DNA of 37,728 nt from an uncultured Piscirickettsiaceae bacterium (lineage in GTDB: Bacteria > Pseudomonadota > Gammaproteobacteria > GCF-002020875), in assembly GCA_964647745.1 (NCBI GenBank), contig CAZYJG010000003.1, forward strand, positions 1 to 37,728, given 5' to 3'. A program made the position numbers and the translations under genes. The notes below the pieces were generated by a model. It searched no databases. It worked only from the letters and a program-made list of their open reading frames with translations, and was not told the DNA's origin. Below are positions 1 to 3,417 of the stretch, one piece after another (the stretch's first letter is position 1; every line of letters starts with the position of its first letter).

Positions 1-154
1 CCTGAGCCAAGCCAGAGGTACACCTCTGGAAGGTGCAGAGACTACCTGAGAACTACAGTGTTCTTAATCACAGGTTAGAGCGTCCCGCATCCAAACAGCT
101 CATGCTGCGGATGGTGAGATAGTCCGCTCCAGATGGAAACATTTGGATTCAGTG
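1..154 (+). ncRNA. Group I self-splicing intron, 3' portion (5' part lies before the window), interrupting a tRNA anticodon loop
   Basis: Core motifs in the right order: CCTGAGCCAAGC (1-12, P4/P6), P6a hairpin CCAGAGG-TACA-CCTCTGG (12-29), GAAGGTGCAGAGACTA (29-44, J6/7-P7), P8 CATCC...GGATG (88-113), GAGATAGTCC (116-125, J8/7-P7'), P9 TCCAGATG-GAAA-CATTTGGA (128-147), terminal G154 directly before the tRNA 3' exon. Closely resembles the Azoarcus tRNA-Ile and cyanobacterial trnL intron cores as I recall them. Confidence 0.93.
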
Positions 155-194
155 AATCCCTTGGTCCCTGGTTCGAGTCCAGGTGGGCCCACCA
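155..194 (+). tRNA. 3' exon of an intron-split tRNA, most likely tRNA-Ile2 (CAU, lysidine); anticodon and 5' exon are outside the window
   Basis: AA-TCCCT (A37/A38 + anticodon stem 3' strand), TGGTC variable loop, T-arm CCTGG-TTCGAGT-CCAGG, acceptor strand TGGGCCC, discriminator A, encoded CCA. AATCCCTTGGTC...GGGCCCACCA matches proteobacterial Ile2 tRNAs, and an intron after position 36 matches Azoarcus. Identity is inferred. Confidence 0.85.
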
Positions 195-607
195 ACTTCC
201 TACAGAAGCTGATTCTCTCCAGACCCCATTCAACAACGATGGTCCCTGGTTGATGAATGCTGCGCATTCACCCTACGGGTGGCCTGCGGCCATCTCGGCT
301 TGCGCCGATCGAGTCCAGGTGGGCCCACCAACTTCCTACAGAAGCTGATTCTCTCCAGACCCCATTCAACAACGATGGTCCCTGGTTGATGAATGCTGCG
401 CATTCACCCTACGGGTGGCCTGCGGCCATCTCGGCTTGCGCCGATCGAGTCCAGGTGGGCCCACCAACTTCCTACAGAAGCTGATTCTCTCCAGACCCCA
501 TTCAACAACGATGGTCCCTGGTTGATGAATGCTGCGCATTCACCCTACGGGTGGCCTGCGGCCATCTCGGCTTGCGCCGATCGAGTCCAGGTGGGCCCAC
601 CAACTTC
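173..607 (+). repeat. tRNA-linked tandem repeat, 136-bp unit, ~3.2 identical copies
   Basis: CGAGTCCAGGTGGGCCCACCAACTTC starts at 174, 310, 446 and 582 (period 136). Units look identical by eye. Each is a 45-nt spacer + TGGTCCCTGGTT + 58-nt hairpin insert + CGAGTCCAGGTGGGCCCACCA. Confidence 0.97.
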
Positions 608-613
608 ACAACA

Positions 614-2161
614 CTATCTTGTTTCTGAGAGATAGCCCCTCTTCTGCCGATTCTCCCCCTTCAGAATTGCAGTCGCCTGCTCCCGCTCCTCTCCATAGAG
701 ACGCCCCAACAGTAGTTCTGCATCCTCCTCACCAAGCGTCCCCTGGATCATCCCGTGGTCAGCCACCCATCCGATAGCCGCCTTACGGTTTGCGCTCCTC
801 TCCAGCAGTGGCAATAGTGCAGAGAGCTTGATCGGGGCGGGAAGGTAGCTTCTCTTCTGTCCATTGTTCCCCAGCAGGGAGAGCAGCACGCTGTAGCGAG
901 ACTCACCAACAAGGCCGCTCATCAACCCGAGCGCCTGATCACTGCTCAACGGAGCGGCCAGCTGGTCACGCTCCACCATAAAGTGGATCAACTCATCCCT
1001 GTAGGCACTCCGTTCCATTATCTCCATTGCCCCCTGGGCGGTGAGCGGCAGTTCAAGATAGCTCACCCCCTGCTCATTGTTTCCCAGAAGGGCGCGGAGT
1101 GCATCATGGCGGTCTGCACGTGCAAGTCCCCCCAGCAGGAGAACACCGTCTGCCACACTCAGCCCATCAACCAGGGCACCCTGATCTGCCAGAAGCCCAA
1201 CCATCTCGTCACGATAGACCATCCCCTCCAGCAGGGCTCCCGCATCGGCCACAGCCAGTGGGGTCTGAAGATAGCGCCTCTCCTGCTCATTGAAACCAAG
1301 CAGAGACCTCACCACACTGAAACGGTCTGTCCTCTCAACCCCGTCCAGTAGCTGAATCGCCTCCTTGGCTCTCAATTCACCCGCAAATACCCCATGGTCA
1401 GCGAAGTAGCGGATCAGCTCAGAGCGCAGGGCAACCCCACTCAGCAACCTTTTTGCATCGGCATACCCAAGTGGAAGTTTCAGATAGTCCCTCTCCTCGC
1501 TGTTGGAGCCGAGCAGTGCCTTGACGGAGTCGTGACGATCCATCCCGCTCTGGCTCTGCATCATCCTCTCTGCATCATCGACAGTGAACCCCCCCTGCAG
1601 GAGCGCCCGGTCGGCCATATAACGGATCATCTCCGCACGATCCGAACCGGCAGCAAGAAGGGTATCGACCTGACCGGCCCCAAACGGGGCACGTGCATAG
1701 TTTCTCCCCTCCCGGTTGGCGCCCAACAGGGAGCGGAGGGAGCGGTCATACGCCCTTCGCCCTGCCGGCCCAATCAGTGTGCGTATCTCCTCAACATCAA
1801 GCCCTCCGGCAGGAGTCCCGGAATCTGCAAGATGGGCAATCAGATCCTGCCGCTGCCTGCCACTGCCATCCAGCAGGGCATTGATCTCTCCCACGGAGAG
1901 CGCTCCCGGCAGCAGGTTCCTGCTGTTGCGATTGTCCCCCAGCAGGGATTTGGCCGCATAGTAACGGTCTGTTCCGCTCAGCCCCTGGAGAATCTCGATC
2001 CCGCTGTTGATGGAAAACTGCTGCCCACCCCAGACCGTATCGGCAAGACGGGTAATGGCCGCCCTCCTCTCATACCCGCTCTTCCCCTCCAGATCAGCAA
2101 CGGGATCTGCCGCTACCCAGGAGGAGAACAGCACCAATAAAGTTAGACCTGCTCTGTTCAC
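614..2161 (-). CDS. Exported hypothetical protein of ~7 tandem ~70-aa helical repeats
   Basis: Long ORF (track 614..2188). GTG at 2161 has GAGGAG upstream and is followed by a signal-peptide-like NRAGLTLLVLFSSWVAA-DP. Recurrent R..(S/A)LLGxNxxxRxYLxxPL motif. Confidence 0.8.
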   Translation of the reverse strand: MNRAGLTLLVLFSSWVAADPVADLEGKSGYERRAAITRLADTVWGGQQFSINSGIEILQGLSGTDRYYAAKSLLGDNRNSRNLLPGALSVGEINALLDGSGRQRQDLIAHLADSGTPAGGLDVEEIRTLIGPAGRRAYDRSLRSLLGANREGRNYARAPFGAGQVDTLLAAGSDRAEMIRYMADRALLQGGFTVDDAERMMQSQSGMDRHDSVKALLGSNSEERDYLKLPLGYADAKRLLSGVALRSELIRYFADHGVFAGELRAKEAIQLLDGVERTDRFSVVRSLLGFNEQERRYLQTPLAVADAGALLEGMVYRDEMVGLLADQGALVDGLSVADGVLLLGGLARADRHDALRALLGNNEQGVSYLELPLTAQGAMEIMERSAYRDELIHFMVERDQLAAPLSSDQALGLMSGLVGESRYSVLLSLLGNNGQKRSYLPAPIKLSALLPLLERSANRKAAIGWVADHGMIQGTLGEEDAELLLGRLYGEEREQATAILKGENRQKRGYLSETR

Positions 2162-2352
2162 AATCCACTCCTCTGCACTTGTTCCCATATTGTGAGGTTA
2201 TGAGTCTAGTCCAAACCTGCAGCCAGGGCTAGGCCCCTCCAGGGACCCATCACCTCCTCCTGCTGCACGGCTTCACCAGCTACAAGGCTCTTTTCCGGCA
2301 GCCTGAAACTGCTTTGCGAGAAGCCAATTTAACCGCTTAACTTCCTAAGACC

Positions 2353-2367
2353 CTAAGTAATACTTAA
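2353..2367. promoter_or_regulatory. Palindromic candidate operator CTAAG-N5-CTTAA in the AT-rich divergent intergenic region
   Basis: TAAGTA-A-TACTTA (2354-2366) is a perfect inverted repeat between the repeat-protein gene and the XRE gene. Confidence 0.35.
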
Positions 2368-2482
2368 TTGTTTTTACTTGCGATCCAAAATAGAGTGCCT
2401 ACAGTGGTAAATATAATAGTAAAAAGCTCGGGTAAGGGCAGTTCAATCAGGAGGGAACCCCATCCATGTCGGCAACCAGACC

Positions 2483-2818
2483 ATGTGCGACCGCAAGGTA
2501 GTTTTCGGTGAGCGCCTAAGGCAGGCGAGACAGCAGTCGGGGCTGTCTCAGAAGCAGTTGGGTCTGGAGATTGACATTGATCCGGCAACAGCCAGCCCCC
2601 GCATCAACCAGTACGAAAACAACCGCCACCGCCCGAGTGACCAGACGGCTGTAAATCTGGCAAGGGCGCTCAAGGTGCCTGTCGCCTTCTTCTATGCAGA
2701 GGATGATGGGCTGGCAGAGCTGATCCTGCTCTGTGTTCAACTCAGCAGAGAGCAGCAGAGGGTACTTGGACGCTATATCGAGGAGCGGTATGGTATTGAG
2801 TGCTGCATCAAGATCTGA
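2483..2818 (+). CDS. XRE-family helix-turn-helix transcriptional regulator
   Basis: FGERLRQARQQSGLSQKQLG...ASPRINQYENNRHRP...LARALKVPVAFFY is a typical Cro/C1-type HTH. Confidence 0.9.
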   Translation: MCDRKVVFGERLRQARQQSGLSQKQLGLEIDIDPATASPRINQYENNRHRPSDQTAVNLARALKVPVAFFYAEDDGLAELILLCVQLSREQQRVLGRYIEERYGIECCIKI

Positions 2819-2829
2819 TGCCACAAGCC

Positions 2830-3417
2830 CTACGGCCTCTTCTGCCACTCCCCAAGGAAGAAATTCCGCAACCAGACCCTTAGCTCCCCAAACACGCCTG
2901 GTGTTGTTGCAGTTGCGGCCATAGGCTGTCTGGCGCGACCCTGTTCAGCCCGCTGTTGACGGTAGGCCTTCCACCCCTGGTCTGCCACCTCGGTGACTGG
3001 AACCGACTCCTCGTCTGGTGGCTCAACGGCCTCTGGCTGTGGGGCTGCCTGCTGCTGAGATGATCCCTGAATAGTCTGGTACTCCAGCAGGCGCAGCAGT
3101 CTGCGATTGTCCTCCCGAATATCATCAAGCTCCGATCTGAGGTCATGAATCAACCCCCGAAGATCGGTAAGCTCCCTTGCTGTAACATAGGGGTCCCCGC
3201 CGGATGCCGGGCTGGAGGGGATATCCTCTGGCTCTGCAAGGGTTGGGGAGTCATTGAAGTTGACATCATCGAAGACACGCAACAGCTCCGAGGTCTCTAC
3301 GCGCCGCTTTCCATCCTTGCCTACAACATAGGTCAGATCGCCGCGACTGAACATGCGGTAGATGCTGGAACGGCTCTTCCCCGTCAGTTCACAAACTTCC
3401 TTGATATTATGAAGCAT
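2830..3417 (-). CDS. DNA-binding protein: N-terminal excisionase/MerR-like HTH, central coiled coil, amphipathic C-terminal helix
   Basis: NIKEVCELTGKSRSSIYRMFSRGDL...GKRRVETSELLRVF (winged HTH); LTDLRGLIHDLRSELDDIREDNRRLLRLLE (heptads); GVFGELRVWLRNFFLGEW tail. Confidence 0.75.
   Translation of the reverse strand: MLHNIKEVCELTGKSRSSIYRMFSRGDLTYVVGKDGKRRVETSELLRVFDDVNFNDSPTLAEPEDIPSSPASGGDPYVTARELTDLRGLIHDLRSELDDIREDNRRLLRLLEYQTIQGSSQQQAAPQPEAVEPPDEESVPVTEVADQGWKAYRQQRAEQGRARQPMAATATTPGVFGELRVWLRNFFLGEWQKRP

What the first reader, a model, noticed from the sequence alone, without database searches (positions are those of the whole stretch)
173..607. Tandem array of tRNA 3' halves, each interrupted in the T-loop by the same 58-nt element
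Seen: three identical 136-bp units after the tRNA CCA. Each has the tRNA segment TGGTCCCTGGTT (240-251, 376-387, 512-523), a 58-nt insert (252-309, 388-445, 524-581), then the exact remainder CGAGTCCAGGTGGGCCCACCA. Removing the insert regenerates 33 nt of the tRNA 3' end exactly, so this is an insertion at TT^CGA rather than a plain duplication. Known: tRNA-linked repeats exist (e.g. E. coli tyrT), and T-loop/3' ends are integrase targets. Inference: a non-autonomous, tRNA-targeting mini-element that inserts at the T-loop and amplifies in tandem. Alternatively, an array of decoy att sites or CCA-ended tRNA-like small RNAs co-transcribed with the intron-containing tRNA. No mobilising enzyme is present in the window. 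This is the best candidate here for an undescribed system.
Basis: partly seen in the sequence, partly recalled or inferred. Interest (0 to 1): 0.85.

Follow-up and report, generated by a model that had tools for sequence, protein, structure and literature searches.

The report
tRNA-linked repeat array after a tRNA
The three identical 136-base units behind this tRNA gene are real, but they belong to the little-studied "tRNA-linked repeat" family known from E. coli, built around a conserved three-hairpin core that is widespread in proteobacteria and still has no known function.

Summary
Window 173-607 holds 3.2 perfect 136-bp units. Each is trailer, 12 nt of the tRNA, a 58-nt insert, then the last 21 nt of the tRNA. 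Contig depths in four runs from three studies fit about three copies.

It is not an undescribed system. Two congeners carry one unit and one carries none. A model of the insert finds the same layout behind other tRNAs in other families. A second model, built without E. coli sequence, matches the E. coli tyrT/tyrV, serX and rrnA/B/D-distal repeats at full length. These are the "tRNA-linked repeats" (TLRs; PMC8144298, passages read).

The core folds as three hairpins closed by the split T-stem, with strong covariation. It lies in tRNA sense here and antisense in all ten E. coli units.

Best reading: a TLR array, expanded by unequal crossing-over, probably released from read-through transcripts at the copied 3' end. 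The function is unknown. Whether the core is or was mobile DNA stays open.

The parts
1..154 (+). 3' part of a group I intron in the anticodon loop of the tRNA(CAU) gene; the contig starts inside it
   Evidence: Rfam RF00028 matches 1-146, cut at the 5' end, E 4e-4. The full intron-bearing copy on G000:C130 scores 76 bits. The exon boundary follows from the match of the intronless tRNA to 155-194.
155..194 (+). 3' exon of the tRNA (positions 38-77: anticodon-stem 3' strand, variable loop, T-arm, acceptor 3' strand, CCA)
   Evidence: 100% match to positions 38-77 of the intronless tRNA(CAU) of G009; sequence.
195..239 (+). trailer copy 1: C/A-rich and G-poor, with no terminator-like hairpin
   Evidence: 0 terminator-like sites in 1-900. 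Its first ~11 nt resemble the trailers of congeners.
240..251 (+). piece 'a' of unit 1: copy of the tRNA variable loop, T-stem 5' strand and first T-loop bases
252..309 (+). TLR core of unit 1: three hairpins, in tRNA sense
   Evidence: R2 match at 246-322, 75.8 bits; fold; covariation.
310..330 (+). piece 'B' of unit 1: copy of the last 21 nt of the tRNA, including CCA
331..466 (+). unit 2 (trailer 331-375, a 376-387, core 388-445, B 446-466)
   Evidence: Identical to unit 1; R2 match at 382-458.
467..602 (+). unit 3 (trailer 467-511, a 512-523, core 524-581, B 582-602)
   Evidence: Identical to unit 1; R2 match at 518-594.
603..607 (+). first 5 nt of the trailer repeated after the last unit, so the direct repeat that flanks each unit is 26 nt long
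614..2188 (-). convergent 524-aa ORF with no Pfam family; not part of the repeat, but it marks the conserved far side of the site
   Evidence: Its homologue follows the tRNA directly in G008 (no unit) and after one unit in G006.

Best explanation
This is a three-copy array of tRNA-linked repeats (TLRs), the class first seen behind E. coli tyrT. Each unit is a trailer followed by a copy of the last 33 nt of the host tRNA. That copy is split in the T-loop by a conserved core. The core folds on its own strand into three hairpins, and the two halves of the T-stem close the fold. SHOWN: the anatomy; about three copies; single-copy and empty states in congeners; the same layout behind other tRNAs, tmRNA and 5S rRNA across the phylum; homology of the core to E. 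coli TLR cores; covariation in all helices; and the core orientation (tRNA sense here, antisense in E. coli). INFERRED: (1) the array grew from one ancestral unit by unequal crossing-over or slippage between the 26-nt direct repeats (tRNA 3' end plus ACTTC), and recently, because the copies are identical. (2) With no terminator between the tRNA and the units, read-through transcripts carry the units. Each copied 3' end plus trailer start re-creates the tRNA's own 3'-processing site, so unit-length (~136 nt) CCA-ended RNAs with a compact core are released. This is what has been proposed for E. coli RrB and rtT. (3) What such an RNA does is unknown. A CsrA-sponge role like that proposed for RrB is unlikely here.
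For: Anatomy and copy number.

Conservation: G004 has one unit (90.8% identical to G000 over 76 aligned positions) and G006 one unit (82.9%). G008 has none at the same tRNA/524-aa-ORF junction. G016, of another genus, has a shorter element whose T-stem strand matches its own tRNA. The trailer is not alignable between these species while the core is, with compensatory changes in hairpin 2.

Family: R1 and R2 find the layout behind tRNA-Pro, Asn, Arg (three anticodons), Ser, Glu, Phe, Lys and Met. Of 48 copies at 30 loci, 28 lie within 1.2 kb downstream of a tRNA, and 20 of those 28 (18 sense, 2 antisense) have an exact copy of at least 17 nt of that tRNA's 3' end beside them. R2 hits at E<=0.001 occur in 64 of 151 genomes sampled from the class and 34 of 151 from the phylum.

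E. coli: R2, built from 10 non-E. coli modules, matches all 10 tested TLR units at full length: rrnA/B/D-distal 36-37 bits, serX x3 21-23 bits, tyrT/V x4 13-19 bits. In a global alignment of G000 against the tyrT unit, the score is 20.5 in core sense, -12.0 in the other orientation, and -2.6 +/- 3.3 (maximum 6.0) for 300 shuffles.

Structure: 84.8% of cells are paired against 71.4% in shuffles and at most 43% when partners are slid; 19 of 31 pairs change on both sides; 0 of 500 shuffles reach the covariation score. G:U outnumbers A:C 28 to 10 on the core-sense strand.

No terminator-like site in 1-900.

Literature (PMC8144298, passages read): TLRs share 18-19 bp with the 3' end of the upstream tRNA or rRNA gene; 22 TLRs lie at 10 loci with 1-5 per locus; they have no known function; RrB is made by read-through, and its 3' end maps just after the repeat, suggested to be an RNase E site.
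Against: No RNA data: no RNA run holding this stretch was listed, so transcription, strand and processing are untested here. The core has opposite orientations in different lineages (23 sense and 5 antisense among the 28 tRNA-adjacent copies; 10 of 10 antisense in E. coli). That is awkward for any sequence-specific RNA role tied to the host transcript, and it fits a DNA-level origin better. In some relatives the unit includes the tRNA's terminator hairpin (G106a, by eye), which would limit read-through there. Rfam's own RtT model does not match the window at E<=1, so homology rests on my models and alignments. E-values from those models are rough because calibration was shortened. Copy number rests on contig depth, not on spanning reads. 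I could not read Egan & Landy 1978, Rudd 1999 or Bosl & Kersten 1991, so I do not know how much of the split-T-loop anatomy was already described.
Confidence: 0.72

Rival explanations
1. The core is, or was, a non-autonomous mobile DNA element that lands in hairpin loops, just 5' of TCGA in the T-arm, on either strand. It survives only in dispensable partial copies of stable-RNA 3' ends. Under this view TLR arrays are by-products and carry no RNA function. This rival concerns origin and does not exclude membership of the TLR family.
For: Both orientations occur relative to the host gene, yet read in the core's own sense the core is always followed by TCGA(A/G) or TCAA and preceded by GG(A)T. 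Local flanks match each host tRNA while the core is shared. G066 has two different cores side by side in one T-loop. Filled and empty sites occur in congeners. Some copies lie away from any tRNA-like flank, some inside other inverted repeats (by eye in L221 and L222; L195, L202, L204). Some genomes hold 20-28 copies. The core has short inverted ends, TGA...TC(G/A)A. The tyrT-rttR region shows raised exonuclease-resistant coverage in E. coli mobilome sequencing, although the authors do not claim circles (10.1101/2024.07.17.603846, passage read).
Against: Copies within one genome differ strongly in stem sequence while keeping the pairing (G066a against G066b). That looks like old, individually constrained copies and not a recent burst. 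There is no target-site duplication. No transposase or integrase lies beside any of the three arrays examined, and G000 has no Y1 transposase match (assembly 87% complete). G000 holds the core at this one locus only. The 5S rRNA-linked copies are not in a TCGA loop. Simple insertion does not explain why a partial tRNA copy plus trailer exists at each locus.
Confidence: 0.3
2. The units encode a protein-sponge small RNA like E. coli RrA/B/F, which bind CsrA and Hfq in vitro through GGA motifs in hairpin loops.
For: The rrnB-distal TLR core is homologous to this family (36 bits), and RrB binds CsrA and Hfq in vitro (PMC8144298). The reverse strand of G+C-rich relatives gives weak Rfam matches to rsmX and RsmW (E 0.05-0.23, far below gathering score).
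Against: By my reading of the unit sequence, it has no GGA on the tRNA-sense strand, and its three loops lack GGA on either strand. In sense-type relatives the host transcript carries UCC-type loops, the complement of GGA. The same paper reports that the 19 tRNA-operon TLRs score below 0.01 in a CsrB/C predictor.
Confidence: 0.07
3. The repeated tRNA 3' ends are attachment-site scars or decoys left by tyrosine-recombinase elements that integrate at the T-loop.
For: tRNA 3' ends are classic integration sites (established knowledge). The copied segment starts in the T-loop and runs 5 nt past CCA. Three small genes between the array and core genes include an HTH_17 (excisionase-type) domain protein.
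Against: No further tRNA fragment bounds an island in the window. No integrase lies in the contig. Arrays in G089, G066 and G106 sit between housekeeping genes. The core interrupts the would-be crossover site. The covarying hairpins and the 5S-linked members are not expected of attachment-site arms. No match in phage or plasmid collections.
Confidence: 0.05
4. The three copies are an assembly artefact: a de Bruijn graph cycle traversed an arbitrary number of times near a contig end.
For: The array lies 170 nt from the contig start of a short-read MAG. The period of 136 is close to typical maximum k. The copies are 100% identical.
Against: The depth of the unit contig is about three times the flanks in four runs from three studies. 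Single units with the same anatomy exist in two other species, so at least the unit itself is real.
Confidence: 0.04

Closest known systems
E. coli tRNA-linked repeats (TLRs): the 178-bp tyrT/tyrV repeats (rtT/rttR), the serX repeats and others (Egan & Landy 1978; Rudd 1999; both known to me only through PMC8144298 and recall)
   Same: They lie directly downstream of a stable-RNA gene. Each unit ends in an exact copy of the gene's 3' end plus the first trailer bases. There are 1-5 tandem units. Each unit also holds the bases just upstream of that copy, so a partial T-arm is split by a core of about 60-70 nt. The core is homologous: two or three hairpins (UGC-type loops in the tyrT units), the CCCTNCGGG motif, and TCGA after it.
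   Different: The core is in tRNA sense here and antisense in all 10 E. coli units tested. Read in tRNA sense, the split lies after T54 here and after TTCGA in E. coli. The unit is 136 bp against 178-181 bp. The host is an intron-bearing tRNA(CAU) of a marine MAG. There is no terminator inside the unit (serX units contain one, by eye). Rfam RtT (RF00391) does not match the window.
RrA/RrB/RrF small RNAs between terminators T1 and T2 of E. coli rrnA, rrnB and rrnD (PMC8144298)
   Same: Same core family (best E. coli matches to R2, 36-37 bits). An 18-nt copy of the host 3' end follows the core.
   Different: The host is 5S rRNA and there is no T-loop. The core is antisense, so the transcript shows GGA loops that bind CsrA in vitro. 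The G000 unit has none.
REP/BIME-type extragenic palindromes and their Y1 (RAYT) transposases
   Same: Short, hairpin-forming, intergenic, orientation-free and dispersed in some genomes.
   Different: G000 has one locus only and no Y1 transposase match. The core is a defined three-hairpin unit of about 60-75 nt with a conserved single-stranded linker. No Y1 gene was seen beside a core; only coordinates were compared.
3' external transcribed spacers of tRNA operons acting as RNA sponges (3'ETS-leuZ; mentioned in PMC8144298; details recalled)
   Same: A functional RNA could be cut from a tRNA trailer.
   Different: No base-pairing target is proposed or tested here. 3'ETS-leuZ has no copied tRNA end or three-hairpin core (recalled).

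Membership tests
tRNA-linked repeats (TLR), as defined in PMC8144298 | Located in a tRNA or rRNA operon, immediately downstream of the stable-RNA gene | tested here: met
   The array starts at the base after the CCA of the tRNA 3' exon.
tRNA-linked repeats (TLR), as defined in PMC8144298 | 18-19 bp at the 3' end of each repeat identical to the 3' end of the upstream gene | tested here: met
   21 nt are identical in all three units, plus 5 nt of trailer.
tRNA-linked repeats (TLR), as defined in PMC8144298 | One to five repeats per locus | tested here: met
   3.2 copies; depth ratio of about 3.
tRNA-linked repeats (TLR), as defined in PMC8144298 | Sequence and structure related to the E. coli members | tested here: met
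   R2, built without E. coli sequence, matches 10 of 10 E. coli units at full length. Pairwise score 20.5 against a shuffle maximum of 6.0. The core is in the opposite orientation relative to the host gene.
tRNA-linked repeats (TLR), as defined in PMC8144298 | Transcribed with the host gene and processed to a discrete RNA (shown for rtT and RrB) | not testable with these tools
   No RNA holder was listed for this stretch.
Rfam RtT RNA (RF00391) | Match to the covariance model at the gathering score (45 bits) | tested here: not met
   No RtT match at E<=1 in window 1-1000. Units of G066 score 19-20 bits on the reverse strand.
Integrase attachment-site remnant | Tyrosine recombinase nearby and a second tRNA fragment bounding an island | tested here: not met
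REP/PATE-type elements mobilised by Y1 transposases | Many dispersed copies and a Y1 transposase in the genome | tested here: not met
   One locus only. No PF01797 match (assembly 87% complete).

The most novel reading that the evidence does not exclude
The TLR core is a phylum-wide structured element with no Rfam match found (none at gathering score in the 16 loci scanned). It colonises hairpin loops near the 3' ends of stable-RNA genes (tRNA, tmRNA, 5S rRNA) in either orientation, by a DNA-level mechanism with no recognisable enzyme next to it. The fold is selected on the core's own strand whatever the direction of host transcription. That would make it a new kind of non-autonomous mobile or single-strand-DNA-acting element and not a trailer RNA. 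Its E. coli members would include the rrnB T1-T2 spacer.
Probability: 0.25. Interest if true: 0.7.

Novelty: new variant of a known kind. Interest (0 to 1): 0.45.

Why it matters
[quoted passage not shown] This locus, followed outward, shows four things. The family reaches marine and G+C-rich lineages: 64 of 151 sampled genomes of the class and 34 of 151 of the phylum have matches. The 'copied 3' end' is really a split T-arm that clamps a covarying three-hairpin core. The core can face either way. The same core follows tmRNA and 5S rRNA genes.

This gives a concrete model and a testable contrast, namely sense-type against antisense-type hosts, for deciding whether TLRs act as RNA, as DNA structure, or are selfish. 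For the window itself the result is sobering: it is a member of a known family, not a new system.

Tried and rejected
ARAGORN finds no tRNA in the window or on C130, because of the intron and the contig edge.

Exact-word search of the assembly finds the insert and the trailer only at this locus.

A pattern scan of genome contigs gave 106 stretches. Only one was a true relative, the G016-equivalent record; the rest were chance hits in coding DNA. Two metagenome pattern scans gave nothing and one chance hit.

blastn of a G+C-rich unit against plasmids and phages gave no match.

The look-up of sequencing runs listed no RNA holder, so expression could not be examined.

No acceptor-like pairing partner for the copied 3' strand was found by eye or by folding. 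Single-sequence folds have weak z-scores of -0.6 to -2.8.

The ideas of a hammerhead or other small ribozyme, an integron attC site, a permuted tRNA and a primer-binding site were considered from the sequence. They were dropped for lack of the defining motifs. No formal test was made beyond Rfam.

Y1 transposase (PF01797) was found in 5 of 5 genomes with 20-28 core copies and in 1 of 5 complete genomes without copies. I chose these genomes by the feature itself, and genome size confounds the comparison. No Y1 gene lay beside a core by the listed coordinates. This is a lead only.

Literature searches on tandem repeats with partial tRNA and integrase, on rtT/tyrT (63), and on four 12-mer motifs (104) gave nothing relevant. 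Bosl & Kersten 1991 (PMC329039) is not held. Egan & Landy 1978 and Rudd 1999 were not seen. Supplements of PMC8144298 and of the mobilome preprint were not opened; they may show which TLR loci and which coverage patterns were found.

Full report
1. THE OBSERVATION

The window is the first 37.7 kb of contig C3 of a 169-contig, 1.55-Mb assembly that is 87% complete. Bases 1-146 match the 3' part of a group I intron (Rfam RF00028). Bases 155-194 are the 3' exon of a tRNA with anticodon CAU. This is shown by the full intron-bearing copy on contig C130 and by the intronless orthologue of a congener.

After the CCA, TRF reports 173-607 as 3.2 perfect copies of a 136-bp unit, and a script confirms that the three units are identical. 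Each unit is a 45-nt trailer, 12 nt equal to the tRNA's variable loop, T-stem 5' strand and 'TT', a 58-nt insert, and then the last 21 nt of the tRNA. After the last unit the first 5 trailer bases recur, so each unit is bracketed by a 26-nt direct repeat.

2. IS IT REAL?

The array lies close to a contig end of a short-read MAG. I therefore laid Logan contigs of four seawater or marine runs from three studies on bases 1-1000. In each run the unit forms a 163-166-nt self-overlapping contig. Its depth is about three times that of the unique flanks: 38.9 against 11.5/12.6; 67.8 against 29.3/22.5; 1230-1290 against 477/421; 31 against 11.2/7.7.

Two of the runs may be the source sample, and the tool warns that contig depth is not a copy number. 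This is good but not decisive support for three copies. In the deepest run, rare single-base variants of the unit exist (depth 25 and 4 against about 1250).

The same samples also hold the C130-type trailer joined to the same tRNA end, at roughly half the depth in X2 (12.4). A second strain or locus without the array therefore co-occurs.

3. RELATIVES

The GTDB order holds only 17 genomes. Two congeners carry exactly one unit after the same intron-bearing tRNA: G004 (90.8% identical over 76 aligned positions) and G006 (82.9%). G008 has the tRNA directly against the homologue of the 524-aa ORF, with no unit.

G016, of another genus, has a shorter element behind an intronless tRNA(CAU). The T-stem strand of that element matches its own tRNA and not that of G000. 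In the remaining genomes of the order whose tRNA(CAU) trailers I read, other sequence follows the tRNA, in several cases with what look by eye like terminator hairpins.

Between G000, G004 and G006 the trailer is not alignable, but the insert is, with compensatory changes in the middle hairpin. The insert is therefore under selection for structure. The three-copy state is a recent expansion of an older single unit.

4. A FAMILY, NOT A ONE-OFF

A covariance model of the three congeneric modules (R1) was run on 150 genomes spread over the class. It found the same layout behind tRNA-Pro(CGG), tRNA-Asn(GTT) and two tRNA-Arg genes of other families, several in tandem. In each case the flanks copy the local tRNA, while the core is shared.

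In one array two different cores lie side by side in the same T-loop. In another array the third unit is disrupted, and by eye a transposase-like frame lies downstream (not tested).

ORFs next to three such arrays gave either housekeeping domains or no Pfam match. No integrase or transposase domain was found among the 9 ORFs scanned.

I aligned ten modules (A8) and wrote a structure with the split T-stem, a short extension, and hairpins 1-3. It holds in 84.8% of cells, against 71.4% in shuffles and at most 43% when partners are slid. Nineteen of 31 pairs change on both sides. None of 500 shuffles reach the observed covariation score. G:U pairs outnumber A:C 28 to 10 on the strand as read, so the fold is selected on the core's own strand.

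5. THE LINK TO E. COLI

Each 178-bp tyrT unit, and also the tyrT-tyrV spacer, has the same layout. It holds a partial T-arm of tRNA-Tyr split by a core of about 68 nt, followed by the last 18-19 nt of the tRNA.

Read in reverse complement, that core aligns end to end with the marine and G+C-rich cores. The shared features are the UGC-type loops, the CCCTNCGGG linker, the GCC-TGC-GGC middle hairpin, and TCGA right after the core.

Model R2 was built from the ten non-E. coli modules. It matches all ten E. coli units that I tested, at full length and always on the strand opposite to the host gene: rrnD-, rrnB- and rrnA-distal at 36-37 bits; serX x3 at 21-23 bits; tyrT/V x4 at 13-19 bits. An eleventh weak hit overlaps thrV itself. 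A scan of the whole K-12 chromosome lists these five loci and no others at E<=10.

A plain global alignment of the G000 module to a tyrT unit scores 20.5 in that orientation. It scores -12.0 in the other orientation, and -2.6 +/- 3.3 (maximum 6.0) for 300 shuffles.

The rrnB copy lies between terminators T1 and T2 and is followed by an 18-nt copy of the 5S rRNA 3' end.

6. WHAT THE LITERATURE CALLS IT

Passages of PMC8144298 (Front Microbiol 2021) define 'tRNA-linked repeats (TLRs)'. They were first described in 1978. Twenty-two were catalogued at ten K-12 loci by Rudd 1999, with one to five per locus. All have 18-19 bp at their 3' end identical to the 3' end of the upstream tRNA or rRNA gene. 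[quoted passage not shown]'

The paper shows that the three rrn TLRs (RrA/B/F) are made by read-through of T1 and processed, and that they bind Hfq and CsrA in vitro through GGA motifs. It suggests that the repeated 3' end is an RNase E signal. It reports conservation within Enterobacteriales only, and scores below 0.01 in a CsrB/C predictor for the 19 tRNA-operon TLRs.

A search for the term in the held library finds only this paper and one editorial on the subject.

A mobilome preprint notes raised exonuclease-resistant coverage over tyrT-rttR under stress, without explaining it (10.1101/2024.07.17.603846, passage read).

I could not read the 1978, 1991 or 1999 papers. The window's array meets every structural criterion of a TLR. 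It fails only Rfam's narrow RtT model.

7. BREADTH AND ORIENTATION

With R2, 64 of 151 genomes sampled across the class have matches at E<=0.001. This count includes two unpublished genomes, G054 and G156; without them it is 62 of 149. In a sample of the phylum, 34 of 151 genomes have matches, including other classes, and some hold 20-28 copies.

In 30 loci that I held there were 48 copies (the 49th match, a partial one in L212, was left out). Of these, 28 lie within 1.2 kb downstream of an ARAGORN tRNA, 23 in tRNA sense and 5 antisense. Of those 28, 20 have an exact copy of at least 17 nt of that tRNA's 3' end beside them.

Of the other 20 copies, several show tRNA-like 3' ends in their flanks by eye. 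L210 lies 600 nt downstream of a tmRNA gene, and one more locus from the phylum sample, L224, follows a tmRNA gene. About a dozen copies have no such flank, and some of those sit inside other inverted repeats.

Rfam at gathering score names nothing at 16 of these loci except the tmRNA and two tRNAs.

Read in the core's own sense, the core is preceded by GG(A)T and followed by TCGA(A/G) or TCAA in both orientation classes. This is possible because the T-loop TTCGAA is palindromic.

8. HOW IT MOST LIKELY WORKS

The following are shown: the anatomy, conservation, covariation, family membership and orientation.

The rest is inferred. First, identical copies bracketed by 26-nt direct repeats point to recent unequal crossing-over or slippage from a single ancestral unit, and the 0, 1 and 3-copy states in the genus fit that.

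Second, no terminator-like hairpin stands between the tRNA and the units or within them. Read-through transcription should therefore carry the array. Each copied 3' end plus trailer start should be cut and trimmed like the tRNA's own end, giving ~136-nt RNAs with a compact core.

Third, the role of such an RNA is open. By my reading, the G000 unit has no GGA on the tRNA-sense strand and none in its loops on either strand, so a CsrA-sponge role is unlikely.

The two orientations, the constant TCGA junction, the side-by-side cores and the dispersed copies keep alive a DNA-level origin, namely a mobile hairpin-loop invader. I rate this at about 0.3. It is not exclusive of the above.

Against the DNA-level origin: cores within one genome differ in stem sequence while keeping the pairing. 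There is no target duplication. No enzyme lies nearby, and G000 has no Y1 transposase match and only one integrase-family match, on another contig. Simple insertion also does not explain the partial tRNA copies themselves.

9. VERDICT

The interpretation as an undescribed system is not: this is a tRNA-linked repeat array. It is a variant of the E. coli kind, because the core faces the other way, the host is an intron-bearing tRNA(CAU), and the lineage is marine.

The wider picture that came out of the follow-up is worth more than the locus itself: a covarying, phylum-wide core in either orientation, behind tRNA, tmRNA and 5S genes, with no Rfam match found. However, part of it may already be in papers that I could not read.

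Noticed in passing
window 1-194; G000:C130 (L002 1210-1522): The tRNA(CAU) gene carries a group I intron in its anticodon loop. The intron is present in G000 (both copies), G004, G006, G008 and G010. It is absent in G001, G002, G003, G005, G009, G011, G012, G014, G015 and G016. It is therefore polymorphic within one genus. That this tRNA is the lysidine-type tRNA-Ile and not tRNA-Met is my recall of its likeness to E. coli ileX and of its position after rpoD; it was not tested.
   Followed up: partly
G000:C130 (L002), against window 1-200: A second copy of the intron-bearing tRNA lies after rpoD on a 2.9-kb contig. It differs by several single-base changes in the intron and has a different trailer with no repeat. 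Its trailer is seen in runs X2 and X8, in X2 at about half the depth of the window's version. It is either a co-occurring strain binned together or a second locus.
   Followed up: partly
window 614-3417: Between the array and the core genes (yrdC/Sua5-like, a secretin, aroB) lie three ORFs: a 524-aa ORF with no Pfam family, an XRE-type HTH protein, and a 195-aa protein with an excisionase-type HTH_17 domain. The 524-aa ORF keeps its place next to the tRNA in G006 and G008. This may be a small islet, with no integrase.
   Followed up: partly
L186 (E. coli K-12 rrnB distal, 4171829-4171917) and the like in rrnA and rrnD: The spacer between terminators T1 and T2 of rrnB is one of the best E. coli matches to the core model (36 bits). 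By recall, this segment is part of the rrnB terminator cassette in many cloning vectors.
   Followed up: partly
L170 1860-2050 (G066, tRNA-Arg CCG array); L155 (G066, tRNA-Arg CCT array): One unit holds two different cores in tandem inside a single split T-loop. In the other array the third unit's core is truncated, and by eye an IS3-like transposase frame lies downstream (not tested with Pfam).
   Followed up: no
L224 1501-1592 with tmRNA at 1655-2004 (-); L210: A core in antisense orientation follows a tmRNA gene, and its flank is the reverse complement of the tmRNA 3' end. TLR-like units are therefore not limited to tRNA and 5S rRNA genes.
   Followed up: partly
genomes G066, G123, G178, G192, G227 against G020, G027, G044, G187, G201: Y1 transposase (PF01797) matches occur in 5 of 5 genomes with 20-28 core copies and in 1 of 5 complete genomes with none. 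None was seen next to a core.
   Followed up: partly
L129 (G015), downstream of tRNA(CAU): By eye, the sequence after this relative's tRNA(CAU) encodes the C-terminal motif region of a tyrosine recombinase on the opposite strand. If so, the same tRNA serves as an integration site in the family. Not tested.
   Followed up: no
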